From: Acidimicrobiales bacterium
Lineage (GTDB): Bacteria; Actinomycetota; Acidimicrobiia; Acidimicrobiales; JAHEJN01
Length of the DNA stretch: 64,000 bases
Reading direction: 5' to 3'
NCBI GenBank assembly: GCA_024638845.1
Contig: JAHEJN010000002.1
Coordinates: forward strand, 838-64,837
Shown: positions 60,040 to 63,756 of the stretch, piece after piece
How the letters are laid out: the number at the start of each line of letters is the position of its first letter
How positions within the stretch are numbered: the stretch's first letter is position 1
Translations under genes and position numbers: made by a program
Notes under the pieces: generated by a model
The model's input: only the letters and a program-made list of their open reading frames with translations
Databases searched by the model: none
What the model was told of the DNA's origin: nothing

Positions 60040-61065
60040 TCAGCTCTCGTCGGATGTACCGGCGACGAAGGTCGCTACGAACAGGCTCATGATGTCGGCC
60101 ACGACCTCGTCGCGTACATGTCGACCGTCCTCGCCCCAGGCCAGATCGCGGTGCGACTGAGTGACGATCTCGTAGCTCGGGAAGTAGTGGACGTTCTCGT
60201 GAGCGGCCGCGGCCTCCTCGGCCACCGTGCGCAGGAGCGACTTCGAGTACGCGTTGGCGAGCACCACGTCGCGATCGGAGAAGGTGGCCATCAGCGGCAC
60301 CGGGGACACGGTGACGATCATCTGCACGTCGGGGTGCCCGTGTGCGTTCAGCGTCGAGACCGCCCGCTCGAGGGCGGCTGCGTTCTGATCGAAGGAGGTG
60401 ACCTCGAAGCGATAACGATCGGGATGCATTTCTCGCATGATCGCAATTGGTGTCATGTTGAGATAGCACCCGGCCCACTCGTCGAACCAGGTCTCCACCA
60501 GGCCGAGCGTCATCACGACGATCCGGGTGCGCCGCAATCGCGCGTACACGTCGGCGATGATCGATCGCCGCTCGAGGGTCGTGGCTCGATCGACCCACTT
60601 GAGCGTGGGATTCGTGTGCGGATCGATGGTCGTGCCGTCGGGCAGGTCGACCAGGGACTCGACCGGAAAGGGCGCAGCCGGGTCGATGGCCCAGCGGATC
60701 TCGTTCTCGATGGCGAAGGTCGTGTACTTGTTGGTGAACCCACGCCCGGTGACCTGGTCGTTGGCCACTTCGAAGGCGTCGAACTCGTCGGCGTAGCTCG
60801 GCACGGCGAAGCCGCGCTGCACCATGGCCAGCTCGATCCCTCGTGCGAAGCACGACCCGATGGCGAACATCTCGTCACGGGGATCGACGCGGAGTGGACT
60901 CGGGGGCACGGTGGGCCGGAACACAGGCTGGGCCAGCCGCTGAACCGCGAAGTTGCCGGTGACGTCGCGCACGTCGATGCCGTTCTTGTACCAGCGTGCA
61001 TGCGGGTTCTCGCCGAAGTTCTTCGCCGCTGACCCGCTGTCGAATGATTGAAGCGCCAACTTCAC
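60040..61065 (-). CDS. GSCFA domain protein
   Basis: The eponymous motif FAIGSCFARGIE, with SGNH-like spacing (VMTLGLVE). Confidence 0.8.
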   Translation of the reverse strand: MKLALQSFDSGSAAKNFGENPHARWYKNGIDVRDVTGNFAVQRLAQPVFRPTVPPSPLRVDPRDEMFAIGSCFARGIELAMVQRGFAVPSYADEFDAFEVANDQVTGRGFTNKYTTFAIENEIRWAIDPAAPFPVESLVDLPDGTTIDPHTNPTLKWVDRATTLERRSIIADVYARLRRTRIVVMTLGLVETWFDEWAGCYLNMTPIAIMREMHPDRYRFEVTSFDQNAAALERAVSTLNAHGHPDVQMIVTVSPVPLMATFSDRDVVLANAYSKSLLRTVAEEAAAAHENVHYFPSYEIVTQSHRDLAWGEDGRHVRDEVVADIMSLFVATFVAGTSDES

Positions 61066-61132: not shown

Positions 61133-62848
61133 TCAGGTCTTCATCACACCCTTGTCGACCAGGCCGTTGACGGCGCTCACGACGGCACGGAACGATGCGG
61201 TGAGGATCGACGGGTGGAGACCAACGCCCCAGACCGTGTCGCGATCGCCCGTGTCGACCTCGACGTAGGCTGCGGCGCTGGTATCGGAGCCGGTGCCGAC
61301 CGCATGCTCCACGTAGTCGACGAGCTTGCCCTCGAATAGCCCGGCGTCTCGCAGCGCGGTGACGAAGGCGTCGATGGGTCCGTTGCCCTCGCCCTTCACC
61401 TTGACCTCGGTGCCCTTCACCAGCAGATGCGCGCTGACCTTGGCCCCCTGATCCTCGTCGCTGGTCGTGCGGGTCTTGTGGCTGAGGAGCTCGACCATCG
61501 GATCGGGCGATTCCACGTACCGCGTCATGAACCGGCGGTGGATCTCATACGACGTGATCTCGGTCCCCGACTCCTCGGTGACGGCCTGGATCTTCTGCGA
61601 GAACGCCACCTGCAGGGCGCGGGGAAGATCGAGGCCGTACTCGTGGAGCAGCACGTAGGCGACCCCACCCTTGCCCGACTGGCTGTTCACCCGGATGACC
61701 GCCTCGTAGCTCCGGCCGAGGTGTTTCGGGTCGATCGGCAGGTACGGCACGTCCCAGACCTCGTAGTCGCCGGTGAGGCGACTCCCCTCCTCTGCGTGAT
61801 AGATGGCAGCCATACCCTTCTTGATGGCGTCTTGATGACTCCCCGAGAACGACGTGTACACCAGGTCCCCCACCCACGGATGACGAGGGCCGATGGGCAG
61901 CCGGTTGGAGAACTCCACCACCCGGCGCATCTCGTCGATGTCGCTGAGATCGAGCTCGGGGTCGACGCCCTGCGTGAACAGGTTGATGGCTACGTTCACG
62001 AGATCGAGGTTGCCGGTGCGCTCACCGTTACCGAACAACGTGCCTTCGACCCGATCGGCGCCGGCCATTATCCCGAACTCCGCCGCGGCCACTCCCGTGC
62101 CGCGGTCGTTGTGGGGATGGAGCGATAGAACCACACTGTCGCGGTCCCTGATCGTGCGGTGGAAGCGCTCGATCAGGTCGCCGTAGAGGTTGGCGGTGGA
62201 CATCTCGACGGTCGCCGGGAGGTTGAAGATGATCGGCTGGGCCGGTGTCGGCTGGAACACGTCCATCACCGCTTCGCACACCTCGACCGCGAAGTCGGGC
62301 TCGGTGCCGGTGAAGCTCTCGGGTGAGTACTCCCATCGGATACCCGGGTTGTCGGCGATCTCGTAGCACGCCTGGCAGACCTCGGCGCCGGCCACCGCGA
62401 TGTCGACGATGCCCTTGCGGTCGGTCTTGAACACCACTCGGCGCTGGGTGGTCGACGTGGAGTTGTAGAGGTGCACGATCGCGTTCTCGGCCCCGTCGAT
62501 GGCCTCGAAGGTGCGCTCGATCAGCTCGCCGCGAGCCTGGGTGAGCACCTGGATGGTGACGTCGTCGGGAATGAGGTCGTCCTCGATGATGTGCCGGACG
62601 AAGTCGAAGTCGGGCTGGGACGCAGCCGGGAAGCCGACTTCGATCTCCTTGAAGCCGATTCTGACCAACAGGTCCCACATCCGCCGCTTCCGCGTGATGT
62701 CCATCGGGTCGACCAACGCCTGATTGCCGTCACGAAGATCGACCGAACACCAGATCGGAGCGGTCTCGATGCGCGTGTCGGGCCACGTGCGGTCGAGCAG
62801 CTCGACCGCGGGATACGGGCGATACTTCTCGAAGGGCATGCGGTTCAT
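61133..62848 (-). CDS. leuA: 2-Isopropylmalate synthase (long actinobacterial form)
   Basis: The Met at 62848 gives MNRMPFEKYRPYP...WCSVDLRDGNQAL...HPHNDRGTGVA. RBS AAGGA lies 8 nt upstream. Confidence 0.95.
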   Translation of the reverse strand: MNRMPFEKYRPYPAVELLDRTWPDTRIETAPIWCSVDLRDGNQALVDPMDITRKRRMWDLLVRIGFKEIEVGFPAASQPDFDFVRHIIEDDLIPDDVTIQVLTQARGELIERTFEAIDGAENAIVHLYNSTSTTQRRVVFKTDRKGIVDIAVAGAEVCQACYEIADNPGIRWEYSPESFTGTEPDFAVEVCEAVMDVFQPTPAQPIIFNLPATVEMSTANLYGDLIERFHRTIRDRDSVVLSLHPHNDRGTGVAAAEFGIMAGADRVEGTLFGNGERTGNLDLVNVAINLFTQGVDPELDLSDIDEMRRVVEFSNRLPIGPRHPWVGDLVYTSFSGSHQDAIKKGMAAIYHAEEGSRLTGDYEVWDVPYLPIDPKHLGRSYEAVIRVNSQSGKGGVAYVLLHEYGLDLPRALQVAFSQKIQAVTEESGTEITSYEIHRRFMTRYVESPDPMVELLSHKTRTTSDEDQGAKVSAHLLVKGTEVKVKGEGNGPIDAFVTALRDAGLFEGKLVDYVEHAVGTGSDTSAAAYVEVDTGDRDTVWGVGLHPSILTASFRAVVSAVNGLVDKGVMKT

Positions 62849-62861
62849 GGTCGATTCCTTG

Positions 62862-62913
62862 CTGATGGTTGGGGCTGATGGGTGGGGCTGATGGTTGGGG
62901 CTGATGGGTGGGG
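62862..62913 (-). repeat. 13-nt x4 tandem repeat in the leuA 5' UTR
   Basis: The plus strand reads ctgatgg(t/g)tgggg x4, alternating. The mRNA sense is CCCCA(C/A)CCAUCAG x4, ending 13 nt before the leuA ATG. Confidence 0.9.
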
Positions 62914-62920
62914 TTCGAGT

Positions 62921-62962
62921 CCGAAAAGCACGAAACCCTCCGGTGCCCGAAGGCACGGAGGG
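62921..62962 (-). terminator. Intrinsic terminator of the leuA attenuator
   Basis: mRNA sense: CCCUCCGUGCC-UUCG-GGCAC(C)GGAGGG, an 11-bp stem with one bulge and a UUCG tetraloop, followed by UUUCGUGCUUUUCGG. Confidence 0.6.
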
Positions 62963-62990
62963 TCTGGCAAGCACCTATGTGGGTGCTCGC

Positions 62991-63026
62991 CTACACGAGA
63001 AGAAGGAGGCTGCTGGAGGGACGCAT
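62991..63026 (-). CDS. Leucine-rich leader peptide of leuA (MRPSSSLLLLV)
   Basis: ATG CGT CCC TCC AGC AGC CTC CTT CTT CTC GTG TAG on the minus strand. Four consecutive Leu codons sit at 62997-63008. Two hairpins follow immediately, the second being terminator-like. It is too short to appear in the ORF track. Confidence 0.6.
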   Translation of the reverse strand: MRPSSSLLLLV

Positions 63027-63034
63027 CAACCACC

Positions 63035-63065
63035 AACGTAACCCGATTCGCACCCCGATGTCCAA
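63035..63065 (-). promoter_or_regulatory. Putative promoter for the leader transcript
   Basis: Minus strand reads TTGGAC (63065-63060), 18 nt, then TACGTT (63040-63035). The leader ATG lies 8 nt downstream of the -10, implying a leaderless or near-leaderless transcript. This is pattern matching only. Confidence 0.3.
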
Positions 63066-63073
63066 CCCCACCT

Positions 63074-63123
63074 CGAAATTGGTTTGCTTCTGCCCACCTG
63101 TGGGCTTGGAGCAACCAATTTCG
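63074..63123 (-). terminator. Long hairpin just after the HAD gene stop
   Basis: CGAAATTGGTTGC...GCCCAC-AG-GTGGGC...GCAAACCAATTTCG: an outer 13-bp arm with one bulge and an inner 6-bp arm. It is AT-richer than its surroundings and has no clear U tract. Confidence 0.4.
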
Positions 63124-63129
63124 CCGATT

Positions 63130-63756
63130 TCAGACGTAGCGGCGGAGGGCTTCCAGTACGTCGTCACCGGTGGTCACCTTCACGGTGGTCATGCCCATGG
63201 CCCGGGCCGACTTGAGGTTGACTCCCAGGTCGTCGAGGAACAGACATCGGGCCGGCGCGACGCCGAGGCGCTCGCAGGCGATCTGGTAGAAGCGCGGGTC
63301 GGGCTTGCGCAACCCGACGAGGCACGACTGCACGATCGTGTCGAAGGCTTCGAACACATCGTGCGCCGACGTGGGGAGAGCGGCGACGTCGAGTGCCTCG
63401 GAGTTGTTGGTGAGCAACGCGGTTGCGATGCCCCGCTGTTGCACCTCCCGAACGGCGGCGATCACCGCCGGGCGCAGCTCGACCTCGAGGCAAGCCAACA
63501 CCGCCGCACCGTCGACGTGGTGCCCGAGCGCGGCGGCCTCGGCCTCGAAGGCGGCGATGAAGCCAGCGGCGTCGAGCTGACCTCGCTCGAGTCGCGACCA
63601 GGCGTTCGTGTCGGGACCGGTGGAGTTGACCAACCGAATGAAGTGCGGGGGTAACCCGGCCCGTGCCTCGTAGTCGGCGAAGTTGTCGAAGGGACTCGTG
63701 GTTAGCACGCCACCCATGTCGAACAGGATCGCGCCCGGACCAGTCACGGCTTGCAC
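63130..63756 (-). CDS. HAD-IA family hydrolase
   Basis: ILFDMGGVL (DxG motif I), LLTNNS, RKPDP, and FLDDLGVNL. Confidence 0.85.

What the first reader, a model, noticed from the sequence alone, without database searches (positions are those of the whole stretch)
62921..63065. Unannotated Leu-rich leader peptide plus terminator upstream of leuA: a classical transcription attenuator
On the minus strand, 142 nt upstream of the leuA ATG, there is an 11-codon ORF: ATG CGT CCC TCC AGC AGC CTC CTT CTT CTC GTG TAG (63026..62991). It encodes MRPSSSLLLLV, with four consecutive Leu codons.

Two structures follow:
- The stop codon runs directly into a 10-11-bp hairpin, GGCGAGCACCC-ACAUA-GGUGCUUGCC (62991..62966).
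- After 3 nt comes a GC-rich 11-bp hairpin with a UUCG tetraloop and a U-rich tail, UUUCGUGCUUUU (62962..62921). This looks like an intrinsic terminator, which is rare in this GC-rich sequence.

The arrangement matches leucine-codon-controlled ribosome-mediated attenuation as known for the enterobacterial leu operon and reported for some actinobacterial leuA genes. A TTGGAC-18-TACGTT promoter-like pair ends 8 nt before the leader ATG, so the leader peptide may be translated from a leaderless mRNA. I could not identify the antiterminator pairing unambiguously by eye.
Basis: partly seen in the sequence, partly recalled or inferred. Interest (0 to 1): 0.6.

Follow-up and report, generated by a model that had tools for sequence, protein, structure and literature searches.

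The report
Leucine-sensing leader before leuA gene
An 11-codon mini-gene with four leucine codons, a hairpin and a transcription stop signal sit just upstream of the leucine-synthesis gene leuA; they most likely switch leuA on when leucine runs short, and they form a widely conserved but undescribed variant of a well-known kind of switch.

Summary
On the minus strand lie ATG 63026 to TAG 62991 (MRPSSSLLLLV), hairpin 1 (62991-62966), a terminator hairpin (62965-62933) with a U-rich tail, and leuA at 62848.

The same three-part leader precedes leuA in 65 of 81 sequences examined (the window plus 80 related loci). By their labels these come from Acidimicrobiia, Chloroflexota, Rokubacteria and Dormibacterota. 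It also precedes leuA in every informative metagenome hit.
- Three Leu codons are invariant at positions 1 and 2 and free at position 3.
- The rare codon CUU is enriched sixfold.
- Both helices covary.
- A -35/-10 pair ends 5-10 nt before the start codon in 90% of loci, so the mini-ORF is probably leaderless.

It matches no Rfam family. It also differs from the actinomycete LEU element, which has no terminator and has its stop codon inside a hairpin.

The "classical" reading is only partly supported. No antiterminator pairing exists in constrained folds or in complementarity tests. What is conserved is geometry:
- Hairpin 1 starts 5 nt after the last Leu codon.
- The terminator follows it with a 0-3 nt gap.

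I infer that a stalled ribosome leaves hairpin 1 folded, and this hinders the adjacent terminator. A ribosome that reaches the stop codon unwinds hairpin 1 and allows termination. It is a new variant of a known kind, of moderate interest.

The parts
63059..63064 (-). -35-like hexamer TGGACA (the overlapping TTGGAC is 63060-63065)
   Evidence: Read. The same TGGACA or TTGACA lies 16-18 nt upstream of the -10 element in relatives. The combined -35/-10 score is at least 8 in 90% of leader starts against 1.5% of control ATG/GTG positions.
63035..63040 (-). -10-like hexamer TACGTT, ending 8 nt before the leader ATG; implies a leaderless or nearly leaderless mRNA
   Evidence: In 58 sequences (the window and 57 related loci) a TANNNT or CANNNT hexamer ends 6-10 nt before the leader start codon in 57 (3 nt in one). 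No transcription start site data exist.
62991..63026 (-). Leader mini-ORF, 11 codons plus stop: MRPSSSLLLLV*
   Evidence: Homologous 9-15-codon ORFs (most often 11) ending LLL(L)-X-stop occur in 58 sequences (the window and 57 related loci) by regex plus fold. A further 7 were found with the covariance model.
62997..63008 (-). Run of four Leu codons, CTC CTT CTT CTC (the sensor)
   Evidence: In alignment A1 three CTN codons are invariant at positions 1 and 2 in 58/58 sequences, and position 3 is free. CUU makes up 33% of run codons against 5.6% of Leu codons in the leuA genes.
62966..62991 (-). Hairpin 1: 10-bp stem whose first base is the G of the TAG stop codon, loop CACAUA
   Evidence: inverted repeat I3. 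Seven basal pairs are kept in 99.2% of cells, with compensatory changes at 4 pairs. The hairpin starts 5 nt (range 2-7) after the last Leu codon across loci.
62933..62965 (-). Terminator hairpin: CCCUCC/GGAGGG plus GUGCC/GGCAC with a UUCG loop, extended by AGA/UUU. It abuts hairpin 1 with no gap.
   Evidence: inverted repeat I4. The lower stem is 100% paired, with CG/UA exchanges in 20-25 sequences. The gap to hairpin 1 is 0 nt in 36 of 56 loci and at most 3 nt in 55 of 56.
62921..62932 (-). U-rich tail CGUGCUUUUCGG; with the preceding UUU it reads UUUCGUGCUUUU, an interrupted and therefore suboptimal U tract
   Evidence: The same interrupted tract occurs in the closest relatives (L001-L013). 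More distant families have canonical tracts such as UUUUUUGUUU.
62861..62913 (-). C-rich, G- and U-poor spacer made of 4 copies of a 13-nt unit (CCCCAMCCAUCAG). It contains no promoter-like hexamer, so leuA depends on read-through.
   Evidence: direct repeat D1. Composition is C 0.54, A 0.27, G 0.10, U 0.08. Similar C/A-rich spacers of variable length, some with repeats, occur in relatives.
62856..62860 (-). Shine-Dalgarno-like AAGGA, 7 nt before the leuA ATG
   Evidence: Read directly.
61133..62848 (-). leuA, 2-isopropylmalate synthase (571 aa), the regulated gene
   Evidence: NCBIfam NF002991 at 835 bits and TIGR00970 at 782 bits, both above their cut-offs. Related loci were recovered.

Best explanation
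This is a leucine-responsive, ribosome-mediated attenuator of leuA, built differently from the textbook one.

Proposed steps:
1. A promoter (TGGACA-18-TACGTT) starts the transcript at or within about 2 nt of the ATG. A leaderless 11-codon ORF is therefore translated as soon as the RNA emerges.
2. Its four Leu codons, two of them the rare CUU, report the supply of charged tRNA-Leu.
3. Hairpin 1 begins in the stop codon, 5 nt after the last Leu codon. A ribosome waiting at a Leu codon sits against hairpin 1 without opening it. A ribosome that moves on to GUG-UAG must unwind the 5' arm.
4. The terminator hairpin follows hairpin 1 with no spacer.
5. leuA has no promoter of its own in the 95 nt after the terminator, so it is expressed only by read-through.

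No RNA pairing exists that could replace the terminator. I therefore infer that hairpin 1 itself is the switch.
- Leucine scarce: hairpin 1 stays folded, with the stalled ribosome butted against it. It is a rigid body attached directly to the 5' end of the terminator stem. This hinders the last base pairs of that stem from forming in the polymerase's RNA exit channel, and transcription reads through.
- Leucine plentiful: the ribosome reaches the stop codon and unwinds hairpin 1. Its 3' arm becomes a flexible linker, the terminator forms, and transcription ends near 62933-62921.
- Hairpin 1 probably also pauses the polymerase, which would keep transcription and translation in step.

Shown here:
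- the anatomy and its conservation;
- the coding constraint on the Leu codons;
- covariation of both helices;
- the fixed spacings;
- the exclusive link to leuA;
- the lack of an antiterminator pairing.

Inferred:
- leaderless start;
- stalling at the Leu codons;
- pausing at hairpin 1;
- the steric way in which hairpin 1 blocks the terminator.

My confidence that this is a Leu-codon leader-peptide attenuator of leuA is about 0.85. My confidence in the hairpin-adjacency step is about 0.35.
For: Conservation:
- The three-part leader occurs in 58 of 81 sequences (the window plus 80 leuA loci) by regex plus fold, and in 7 more by covariance model.
- A metagenome scan used a pattern for hairpin 1 only. 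Thirty of the 80 listed hits had an upstream Leu run (29 with at least 3 Leu codons, one with 2). All 30 also had the terminator. All 27 with enough contig had leuA 108-185 nt downstream. The other 50 hits were unrelated matches inside coding sequence.

Translation of the Leu run:
- Three CTN codons are invariant at positions 1 and 2 in 58/58 sequences, with all four bases seen at position 3.
- CUU makes up 33% of run codons against 5.6% in the leuA genes and 6% in the window's long ORFs.

Structure:
- 99.5% of cells are paired, and 8 of 12 pairs show double changes. None of 500 shuffles reaches this, and the slid controls give 44-58% paired.

Leaderless start:
- The -35/-10 score is at least 8 at 90% of leader starts against 1.5% of control ATG/GTG positions.

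Geometry:
- The last Leu codon is followed by hairpin 1 after 5 nt (range 2-7).
- The gap between hairpin 1 and the terminator is 0 nt in 36 of 56 loci and at most 3 nt in 55 of 56.

No antiterminator:
- Constrained folds never displaced the terminator.
- Only the two arms of hairpin 1 (mean z -4.3) and the two terminator arms (mean z -4.0) are complementary beyond shuffles.
- Cognate and non-cognate pairings of hairpin 1's 3' arm with the terminator have equal energies.
- With the 5' arm masked, the best fold that sequesters the terminator's 5' arm is -5.3 kcal/mol on average, against -17.9 for the terminator.

Dependence on read-through and insulation:
- Only three terminator-like sites occur in 128 kb scanned. 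One is this terminator. Another lies directly behind the upstream HAD gene and would insulate the leader promoter.

Precedent for the logic:
- The M. tuberculosis ilvB1 attenuator has been tested by reporter. In its model a ribosome at the stop codon masks the hairpin that otherwise prevents termination (PMC13236596).
- Leaderless Leu leader peptides have been mapped by RNA-seq in Streptomyces lividans (PMC8079986).
Against: - There are no transcript-end, ribosome or reporter data for this organism or any relative.
- In free solution both hairpins coexist in the minimum-energy fold. The mutual exclusion I propose is steric, inside the transcription complex. It cannot be computed here, and I know of no demonstrated precedent for it.
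- Nine of 56 loci have a 3-5 nt gap and very strong terminators. A steric effect would be weaker there.
- The default state without a ribosome (read-through or termination) cannot be decided from sequence.
- The window's U tract is weak (UUUCGUGCUUUU), so termination efficiency is uncertain.
- For the actinomycete LEU element, Seliverstov et al. cite an experiment in which mutating the Leu codons did not change regulation. This is a caution against assuming stalling is the signal in every leuA leader.
Confidence: 0.5

Rival explanations
1. This is a classical alternative-pairing attenuator after all. A ribosome stalled on the last Leu codons covers the 5' arm of hairpin 1. The freed 3' arm then pairs weakly with the top of the terminator (GGUGCUU with GGGCACC in the window; GGCGC with GUGCC in close relatives). 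This delays terminator folding long enough for read-through.
For: - In the window the duplex between hairpin 1's 3' arm and the terminator's 3' arm is -12.8 kcal/mol, z = -2.1.
- In the closest subfamily (L001-L019), pairing of the 3' arm with the terminator's 5' arm is about -9 kcal/mol, z = -1.6 to -2.0.
- With the 5' arm of hairpin 1 masked, L010 can pair 8 nt of the terminator's 5' arm at -8.3 kcal/mol.
Against: - The pairing is not conserved across the family. Mean z is +0.1 to +1.1 with the arm alone, and -0.46 and +0.56 when half of the loop is included; cognate and non-cognate energies are equal.
- The terminator persists in every constrained minimum-energy fold.
- The alternative fold is about 12-13 kcal/mol weaker than the terminator.
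- The terminator top, with its UUCG loop, should fold faster.
- The ribosome helicase reaches only about 7 nt past the first base of the A-site codon. A ribosome stalled at the Leu codons therefore should not open a hairpin that starts 5 nt after the last one (established ribosome geometry combined).
Confidence: 0.17
2. The terminator is a constitutive partial stop that sets a low basal level. Leucine control is exerted after transcription, by one or more of three routes. The stalled ribosome could keep the pyrimidine-rich Leu run from pairing with the leuA ribosome-binding region, as in the LEU element and the mycobacterial Cys leaderless ORFs. It could protect the 5' end of the mRNA. Or Rho could load on the C-rich spacer when leuA is not translated.
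For: - The actinomycete LEU elements fetched here show exactly this pairing. In Microbacterium, GCUUCUUCU pairs with AGAAGAAGC just before the leuA ATG.
- Canestrari et al. demonstrated the mechanism for Cys.
- Here the Leu run and the leuA start region can form duplexes of about -8 to -11 kcal/mol.
- The spacer is strongly C-rich and G-poor, with C 0.54 and G 0.10.
Against: - The complementarity is only compositional. z is +0.24 to +0.26, and cognate equals non-cognate.
- The spacer length varies from roughly 25 nt to more than 140 nt, so no fixed base stem is possible.
- This reading does not explain why hairpin 1 and the terminator are held 0-3 nt apart, or why the stop codon sits at the base of hairpin 1.
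Confidence: 0.2
3. The roughly 105-nt terminated transcript is a product in its own right. It could act as a small RNA whose single-stranded C/U-rich 5' region pairs with purine-rich ribosome-binding sites, or as the mRNA of a functional micropeptide. Its linkage to leuA would then be secondary.
For: - The layout resembles a small RNA: a 5' single strand, then two hairpins, then a U tail.
- There is precedent in attenuator-derived rnTrpL and peTrpL in Sinorhizobium (abstracts seen: PMC6614838, PMC7298713).
Against: - The N-terminal half of the peptide is not conserved.
- Third codon positions in the Leu run vary freely, which argues against a base-pairing seed.
- The element is always immediately upstream of leuA, which lacks its own promoter.
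- No second copy occurs elsewhere in the window.
Confidence: 0.05
4. The arrangement is a chance combination of a short ORF with the terminator of an upstream gene.
For: In GC-rich DNA short ORFs and hairpins are common. The hairpin-only pattern matched 50 unrelated coding sites in metagenomes.
Against: - Covariance model E = 1e-15.
- Conservation across 65 of 81 sequences examined and across lineages labelled as four phyla.
- Codon-periodic conservation.
- The upstream genes differ between loci while the leader stays.
- A separate terminator-like hairpin already follows the upstream HAD gene.
Confidence: 0.01

Closest known systems
Enterobacterial leu operon leader (leuL; Rfam Leu_leader RF00512)
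   Same: A short ORF with four consecutive Leu codons, including rare ones, is followed by an intrinsic terminator upstream of leuA. The expected logic is the same: leucine starvation gives read-through.
   Different: - No sequence or structure match: Rfam cmscan found nothing up to E = 10.
- The peptide is 11 aa rather than 28 aa (E. coli length from my own knowledge).
- It is leaderless rather than Shine-Dalgarno-led.
- The Leu run sits at the C-terminal end.
- No region 2:3 antiterminator exists.
LEU element upstream of leuA in Actinomycetes (Seliverstov et al. 2005, PMC1262725; S. lividans LeuL1, PMC8079986)
   Same: - Same gene and same phylum.
- A leaderless ORF of 13-16 codons with a run of 3-4 Leu codons.
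- A GC-rich hairpin starts a few nt after the run.
   Different: In the LEU element:
- the ORF continues 6-8 codons past the run;
- the stop codon lies in the hairpin loop;
- there is no terminator;
- the Leu run pairs specifically with the leuA Shine-Dalgarno region.

In the window element:
- the stop codon is at the hairpin base;
- a terminator follows;
- pairing between the Leu run and the Shine-Dalgarno region is not specific.

The covariance model of this family does not detect the four LEU elements fetched.
Mycobacterium tuberculosis ilvB1 and Corynebacterium glutamicum ilvBNC leader-peptide attenuators (PMC13236596, PMC11857589)
   Same: - An actinobacterial short upstream ORF with branched-chain amino acid codons. 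It is leaderless or nearly so in C. glutamicum.
- A hairpin right after the ORF, followed by a Rho-independent terminator.
- In the M. tuberculosis model a ribosome at the stop codon masks the first hairpin and thereby permits termination.
   Different: In those systems the first hairpin overlaps the terminator in sequence, so the two exclude each other by pairing. Here the hairpins are adjacent but share no nucleotides, and both form in the minimum-energy fold.
Streptomyces leuS leader LeuL2 (MRAVRLLLSEPR*; PMC8079986, and predicted by Seliverstov et al. 2005)
   Same: A leaderless 12-codon ORF with three Leu codons, followed by a hairpin and a U stretch.
   Different: It regulates leuS rather than leuA. 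Three codons follow the Leu run. An antiterminator was predicted there.
Mycobacterial polycysteine leaderless short ORFs (Canestrari et al., bioRxiv 10.1101/834739)
   Same: A leaderless sensory mini-ORF has its regulatory codons at the 3' end. Ribosome occupancy decides the fate of the downstream gene.
   Different: Those act on translation, through a long duplex with the Shine-Dalgarno region, and were shown not to involve termination. Here a conserved terminator is present and no specific Shine-Dalgarno pairing is found.
Coupling-type attenuators without an antiterminator (E. coli pyrBI and pyrE; from my own knowledge, not tested here)
   Same: Whether the terminator forms is decided by how close the lead ribosome is to it, not by an alternative RNA pairing.
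   Different: In pyrBI the leader ORF runs through the terminator, and the signal is polymerase speed (UTP). Here the ORF stops about 29 nt before the terminator, and a folded hairpin would have to bridge that distance.

Membership tests
Leader-peptide transcription attenuators (general class) | Short ORF in the 5' leader enriched in codons for the pathway's end-product amino acid | tested here: met
   MRPSSSLLLLV. The Leu run is conserved at codon positions 1 and 2 in 58/58 sequences, and position 3 is free. CUU is enriched sixfold.
Leader-peptide transcription attenuators (general class) | Intrinsic terminator between the leader ORF and the structural gene | tested here: met
   A covarying GC stem plus U-rich tail is found in the window and relatives. 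Whether it actually terminates cannot be tested with these tools.
Leader-peptide transcription attenuators (general class) | The leader ORF is actually translated, and ribosome stalling changes read-through | not testable with these tools
   Only indirect evidence is available: the codon-periodic conservation and the promoter placed for a leaderless start.
Classical trp/leu/his-type attenuator (regions 1:2, 2:3, 3:4) | An antiterminator pairing mutually exclusive with the terminator and comparable to it in stability | tested here: not met
   - The terminator persists in all ribosome-constrained folds.
- Pairing of hairpin 1's 3' arm with the terminator arms gives z = +0.1 to +1.1 (arm alone), and -0.46 and +0.56 with half of the loop included; cognate equals non-cognate.
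- The best alternative fold is about -5 kcal/mol against about -18.
Classical trp/leu/his-type attenuator (regions 1:2, 2:3, 3:4) | The regulatory codons lie within or overlap region 1, so that a stalled ribosome masks it | tested here: not met
   Hairpin 1 starts at the stop codon, 5 nt (range 2-7) after the last Leu codon.
Rfam Leu_leader (RF00512) and any other Rfam 15 family | Covariance-model match | tested here: not met
   No relevant hit up to E = 10 in 62700-63300. No gathering-score hit anywhere in the 64-kb window.
Actinomycete LEU element | Leaderless Leu-run ORF upstream of leuA | tested here: met
   for this family. for LEU elements.
Actinomycete LEU element | Base stem between the Leu run and the leuA Shine-Dalgarno region, enclosing a pseudoknot or hairpin, with no terminator | tested here: not met
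   - No specific complementarity between the Leu run and the Shine-Dalgarno or start region (z = +0.26 and +0.24).
- A terminator is present.
- The spacer is variable in length.
- Model R1 does not hit L081-L084.
Leaderless short-ORF attenuators of Actinobacteria | Transcription start at the first base of the ORF's start codon | tested here: inconclusive
   The promoter geometry fits: the -10 element ends 6-10 nt before the start codon in nearly all loci, and no Shine-Dalgarno sequence is present. No transcription start site data exist.

The most novel reading that the evidence does not exclude
This would be an attenuator that works without any antiterminator pairing. A stable hairpin wedged between the stop codon and the terminator acts as a collapsible spacer. 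When folded, it places the stalled ribosome (or its own rigid helix) directly at the foot of the terminator stem and blocks its completion in the RNA exit channel. When unwound by a terminating ribosome, it releases the terminator. Such a steric, ribosome-position-read switch, conserved across lineages labelled as Acidimicrobiia, Chloroflexota, Rokubacteria and Dormibacterota, would be a new mechanism within ribosome-mediated attenuation.
Probability: 0.3. Interest if true: 0.65.

Novelty: new variant of a known kind. Interest (0 to 1): 0.42.

Why it matters
- Leader-peptide attenuation is a textbook mechanism, but it has been worked out almost only in Proteobacteria, Firmicutes and a few Actinomycetes.
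- This element shows that a compact, leaderless, roughly 105-nt version controls the first committed step of leucine synthesis in Acidimicrobiia and in several poorly studied, mostly uncultured phyla. No Rfam model covers it.
- It lacks the alternative pairing on which all prediction tools for conditional terminators rely. Such tools would miss it. It also raises a concrete, testable question: how does a ribosome decide termination when the RNA has only one fold?
- In practical terms, the covariance model and the architecture rules allow annotation of an otherwise invisible 11-codon gene, and of leuA regulation, in metagenome-assembled genomes.

Tried and rejected
1. Classical antiterminator. 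I tested it with ribosome-constrained minimum-energy folds for 33 leaders. I also ran duplex z-scores for all pairs of regions in 56 leaders and forced-alternative folds. Nothing was conserved, so I reject it as the family-wide mechanism.

2. Leu-starvation frameshifting that would carry the ribosome through the terminator. The +1 frame closes inside the hairpins in 8 of 58 sequences and the -1 frame in 9 of 58. No single frame is always open, and the pattern fits chance. In the window itself the +1 frame hits UAG in the loop of hairpin 1.

3. A second upstream ORF starting at the GUG inside the U tract, preceded by GGAGGG. In the window it runs to a UGA overlapping the leuA ATG. Among the ten closest sequences with this GUG (the window included) it ends at the ATGA overlap in 3, is in frame with leuA in 6, and falls in the third frame in 1. 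The spacer repeats are 13 and 16 nt long, not multiples of 3. The open frames follow from the lack of U and G. Not supported.

4. LEU-like pairing of the Leu run with the leuA Shine-Dalgarno or start region. This includes a 7-nt match of CUUCUCG with CGAGAAG in leuA codons 6-8 that appears in the full-leader fold. The complementarity is compositional only and is not conserved.

5. Pairing of the Leu run with the terminator's 3' arm. Mean energy is -10.6 kcal/mol and mean z is -0.85. The logic would be inverted, because the run is covered by the ribosome in both states, and the free third codon positions argue against it.

6. T-box or riboswitch readings. There is no Rfam match, and the loop of hairpin 1 is not conserved across subfamilies.

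7. Rfam and tRNA scans of the whole window returned nothing.
Full report
**What is there**

On the minus strand the window reads: TGGACA (63064-63059), 18 nt, TACGTT (63040-63035), 8 nt, then ATG CGT CCC TCC AGC AGC CTC CTT CTT CTC GTG TAG (63026-62991).
- The G of the TAG stop codon is the first base of a 10-bp hairpin, GGCGAGCACC / GGUGCUUGCC, with loop CACAUA (62991-62966).
- A second hairpin follows directly (62965-62933): CCCUCC-GUGCC, UUCG loop, GGCAC-C-GGAGGG.
- Then comes the tail UUUCGUGCUUUUCGG.
- A 53-nt C-rich tandem repeat (62913-62861) and an AAGGA Shine-Dalgarno sequence lead to leuA. The leuA ATG is at 62848; the protein is 571 aa and scores above the NCBIfam cut-offs.

The only correction is that the promoter spacing is 19 nt for TTGGAC, or 18 nt for TGGACA.

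A homemade scan of both strands of the 64 kb finds only three comparable hairpin-plus-U sites, and this is one of them.

**Is it more than chance?**

I fetched 80 loci encoding relatives of this LeuA from one genome per GTDB species. The best identity is 75%, to Acidimicrobiia MAGs, so the source genome itself is not in that collection. Counts below are out of 81 sequences: the window plus these 80 loci.

A regex for three or more Leu codons, at most one further codon and a stop, combined with folding, finds the same three-part layout in 58 of 81. A covariance model built from those 58 adds 7 more. That model scores the window element at 78.5 bits (E = 1e-15), with nothing else in the window.

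The carriers are labelled Acidimicrobiia or Actinomycetota, Chloroflexota (including Limnocylindrales), Rokubacteria or Methylomirabilia, and Dormibacterota. MAG labels are only as good as their depositors' calls.

As an independent test I scanned metagenome contigs with a pattern for hairpin 1 alone. Of the 80 hits returned:
- 30 have a Leu run in frame before the TAG (29 with at least 3 Leu codons, one with 2);
- all 30 also have the terminator;
- all 27 with enough contig have leuA 108-185 nt downstream;
- the other 50 are unrelated matches inside coding sequence, with neither a Leu run nor a terminator.

**Evidence that the mini-ORF is decoded**

In the 58-sequence alignment three consecutive CTN codons are invariant at positions 1 and 2, while position 3 takes all four bases. 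The rest of the peptide is unconserved. This is a coding signature, not a pairing signature.

CUU makes up 33% of run codons. It makes up 5.6% of Leu codons in the adjacent leuA genes and 6% in the window's long ORFs. Rare regulatory codons are typical of attenuators.

The ORF length is held at 9-15 codons, most often 11.

**Evidence for a leaderless start**

A TANNNT or CANNNT hexamer ends 6-10 nt before the start codon in nearly all loci, with a TTGACA or TGGACA 16-18 nt further up. The combined score is at least 8 for 90% of leader starts, against 1.5% of 5769 control ATG/GTG positions in the same loci.

Leaderless Leu leader peptides have been mapped by RNA-seq in Streptomyces lividans. 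No start-site data exist for this lineage.

**Structure**

RNAalifold recovers the base of hairpin 1 and the lower terminator stem. On the unfitted MAFFT alignment:
- 99.5% of cells pair;
- 8 of 12 pairs show changes on both sides;
- none of 500 shuffles reaches any observed measure;
- structures slid by 1-3 columns pair only 44-58% of cells.

Most relatives have canonical U tracts such as UUUUUUGUUU. The window and its nearest relatives share an interrupted tract, UUUCGUGCUUUU.

**The missing antiterminator**

- I folded 33 leaders with the ribosome footprint placed at the first Leu codon, the last Leu codon or the stop codon. The terminator stayed in every case.
- Duplex energies between every pair of regions were compared with shuffles. 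The regions were the 5' part of the ORF, the Leu run, both arms of hairpin 1, both arms of the terminator, the tail, and the leuA Shine-Dalgarno region. Only the two known helices stand out (z = -4.3 and -4.0).
- Pairing of hairpin 1's 3' arm with the terminator arms gives z = +0.1 and +1.1. Cognate and non-cognate combinations have equal energies.
- With the 5' arm of hairpin 1 masked, the best fold that ties up the terminator's 5' arm averages -5.3 kcal/mol. The terminator contributes -17.9.
- A weak, lineage-specific pairing exists in the window and its closest relatives: -12.8 kcal/mol (z = -2.1) in the window, and about -9 kcal/mol (z about -1.7) in the relatives. I keep this as a rival at low weight.

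**What is conserved instead is geometry**

The first paired base of hairpin 1 lies 5 nt (range 2-7) after the last Leu codon. The terminator starts 0 nt after hairpin 1 in 36 of 56 leaders, and at most 3 nt after it in 55 of 56.

The ribosome's helicase site lies about 11 nt from the first base of the P-site codon (established knowledge). A ribosome with any of the Leu codons in its A site therefore abuts hairpin 1 without opening it. Decoding the last codon and the stop codon requires unwinding most of its 5' arm.

The only structural difference between 'stalled' and 'finished' is therefore whether hairpin 1 is folded. Physiology requires starvation to give read-through. I therefore infer that folded hairpin 1, with the stalled ribosome against it, interferes with the adjacent terminator, and that its unwinding permits termination.

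The most economical physical reason is steric.
- The base of a terminator stem has to form inside the RNA exit channel.
- The RNA 5' of it has to leave that channel as a single strand.
- A GC-rich helix attached with no linker cannot do so, still less with a ribosome behind it.

This matches the logic proposed, and tested by reporter, for M. tuberculosis ilvB1. There a ribosome at the stop codon masks the hairpin that otherwise prevents termination. In that system the two hairpins overlap in sequence. The steric step is my inference and has no computed or published support here.

**Comparison with known systems**

- *Rfam.* No family matches, so this is not the enterobacterial Leu leader.
- *LEU element.* The 'actinobacterial leuA' element of Seliverstov et al. 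is a Leu-run ORF plus a pseudoknot whose base stem pairs the Leu run with the Shine-Dalgarno region. It has no terminator. I recovered four such elements from actinomycete chromosomes filed as plasmids in PLSDB: Nocardia, Tsukamurella, Nonomuraea and Microbacterium.
  - They are leaderless ORFs of the form M..LLL(S/G)CR(G/D)G..*, with the stop codon in a hairpin loop.
  - In Microbacterium the Leu run GCUUCUUCU is perfectly complementary to AGAAGAAGC just before the leuA ATG.
  - My model does not detect them.
  - The window family shows no specific pairing between the Leu run and the Shine-Dalgarno region.
- *Shared design.* The two families share a leaderless ORF, a Leu run, and a GC hairpin a few nt later. 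They differ in stop-codon placement, in having a terminator or not, and therefore probably in the level of control.
- *Literature.* A search found no paper combining Acidimicrobiia with attenuators or leader peptides.

I therefore class this as a new variant of a known kind.

**Alternative ideas tested and dropped**

Frameshifting through the terminator, a second upstream ORF coupled to leuA, and a 7-nt match between the Leu run and leuA codons 6-8 all behave as chance or as compositional effects.

**Verdict**

- It is wrong in calling the mechanism classical.
- Confidence is about 0.85 that this is a Leu-responsive leader-peptide attenuator of leuA, and about 0.35 for the hairpin-adjacency mechanism.
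- Interest is moderate. The kind is well known, but the antiterminator-less architecture, its spread across several phyla and its absence from Rfam make it worth a targeted experiment.

Noticed in passing
window 62861-62913 (minus strand): Four tandem copies of a 13-nt unit (CCCCAMCCAUCAG) fill the spacer between the terminator and the leuA Shine-Dalgarno sequence. The spacer is C 0.54, A 0.27, G 0.10, U 0.08. Relatives have similarly C/A-rich spacers of very different lengths, some with their own repeats (16-nt units in L001, 6-7-nt units in L021). Possible roles are a Rho loading site or an unstructured landing pad for ribosomes. The function is unexplained.
   Followed up: partly
window 63074-63123: A perfect 11-nt inverted repeat, CGAAATTGGTT / AACCAATTTCG, encloses a second small hairpin. 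It lies between the stop codon of the upstream HAD-family hydrolase gene (63130) and the leader's -35 element. The fold is -30 kcal/mol with z = -3.6. On the plus strand it is followed by TTTCGCCGATTT. It is probably a bidirectional terminator insulating the leader promoter, but an AT-rich palindrome next to a -35 element could also be a regulator binding site.
   Followed up: partly
window 62962-62974 and 62919-62931: The 3' arm of hairpin 1 plus its linker (GUGCUUGCCAGAC) is repeated at 77% identity just after the terminator (GUGCUUUUCGGAC), 43 nt away. The tail therefore mimics the partner of hairpin 1's 5' arm. This may explain the conserved CGUGC interruption of the U tract in this subfamily. 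The meaning is unknown (direct repeat D2).
   Followed up: no
window 62845-62931 (minus strand): A GUG inside the U tract, 4 nt after GGAGGG, opens a 28-codon frame that ends in a UGA overlapping the leuA ATG (ATGA). Among the ten closest sequences with this GUG, the equivalent frame ends at the ATGA overlap in 3 (the window, L001, L004), is in frame with leuA in 6, and falls in the third frame in 1. The spacer repeat units are not multiples of 3. This is probably a by-product of the U- and G-poor composition.
   Followed up: yes
L039:1726-1770, L040:1812-1856; also L034, L046, L047, L060: A second, unrelated leader type lies upstream of leuA in other Acidimicrobiia MAGs. It is a 14-codon ORF, M(R/L)FLLDLRLLNPAA*, followed by a hairpin that appears, on reading L040 by eye, to carry the stop codon in its loop (not folded with a tool). 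An alphaproteobacterial-labelled locus (L066) has ...LLRLTRPAA*.
   Followed up: no
L084:561-676 (Microbacterium sp., PLSDB NZ_CP072877.1): In this actinomycete LEU element the Leu run GCUUCUUCU is perfectly complementary to AGAAGAAGC, which ends 7 nt before the leuA ATG. The minimum-energy fold closes this base stem around an internal hairpin. This clear example supports translational control in that family.
   Followed up: partly
PLSDB records NZ_LN868939.1, NZ_LT559118.1, NZ_LR134469.1, NZ_CP072877.1: Two records filed as plasmids (Nocardia farcinica 2.66 Mb, Nonomuraea gerenzanensis 11.85 Mb) are of chromosome size and are evidently chromosomes or chromosome fragments. Two smaller records (Tsukamurella 154 kb, Microbacterium 465 kb) also carry leuA, a core biosynthetic gene.
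   Followed up: no
window 62825-62831 versus 62996-63002: CUUCUCG in the Leu run is exactly complementary to CGAGAAG in leuA codons 6-8 (the conserved FEK motif). The pairing appears in the minimum-energy fold of the full leader. It is not conserved in relatives and not better than shuffles.
   Followed up: yes
window 60043-61065 (minus strand): The 341-aa ORF immediately downstream of leuA has no NCBIfam match at E <= 0.001.
   Followed up: no
window 1-64000: No Rfam family reaches its gathering score, and no tRNA or tmRNA gene is found anywhere in the 64 kb. Only three hairpin-plus-U terminator-like sites are present on both strands; the third is at about 35940 on the minus strand.
   Followed up: no
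L038, L089, L092, L148, L159 (leader ORFs): Some leaders mix Ile codons into or next to the Leu run (LYILLIS*, ILLLT*, LLLIT*). This hints at joint sensing of leucine and isoleucine in those lineages.
   Followed up: no
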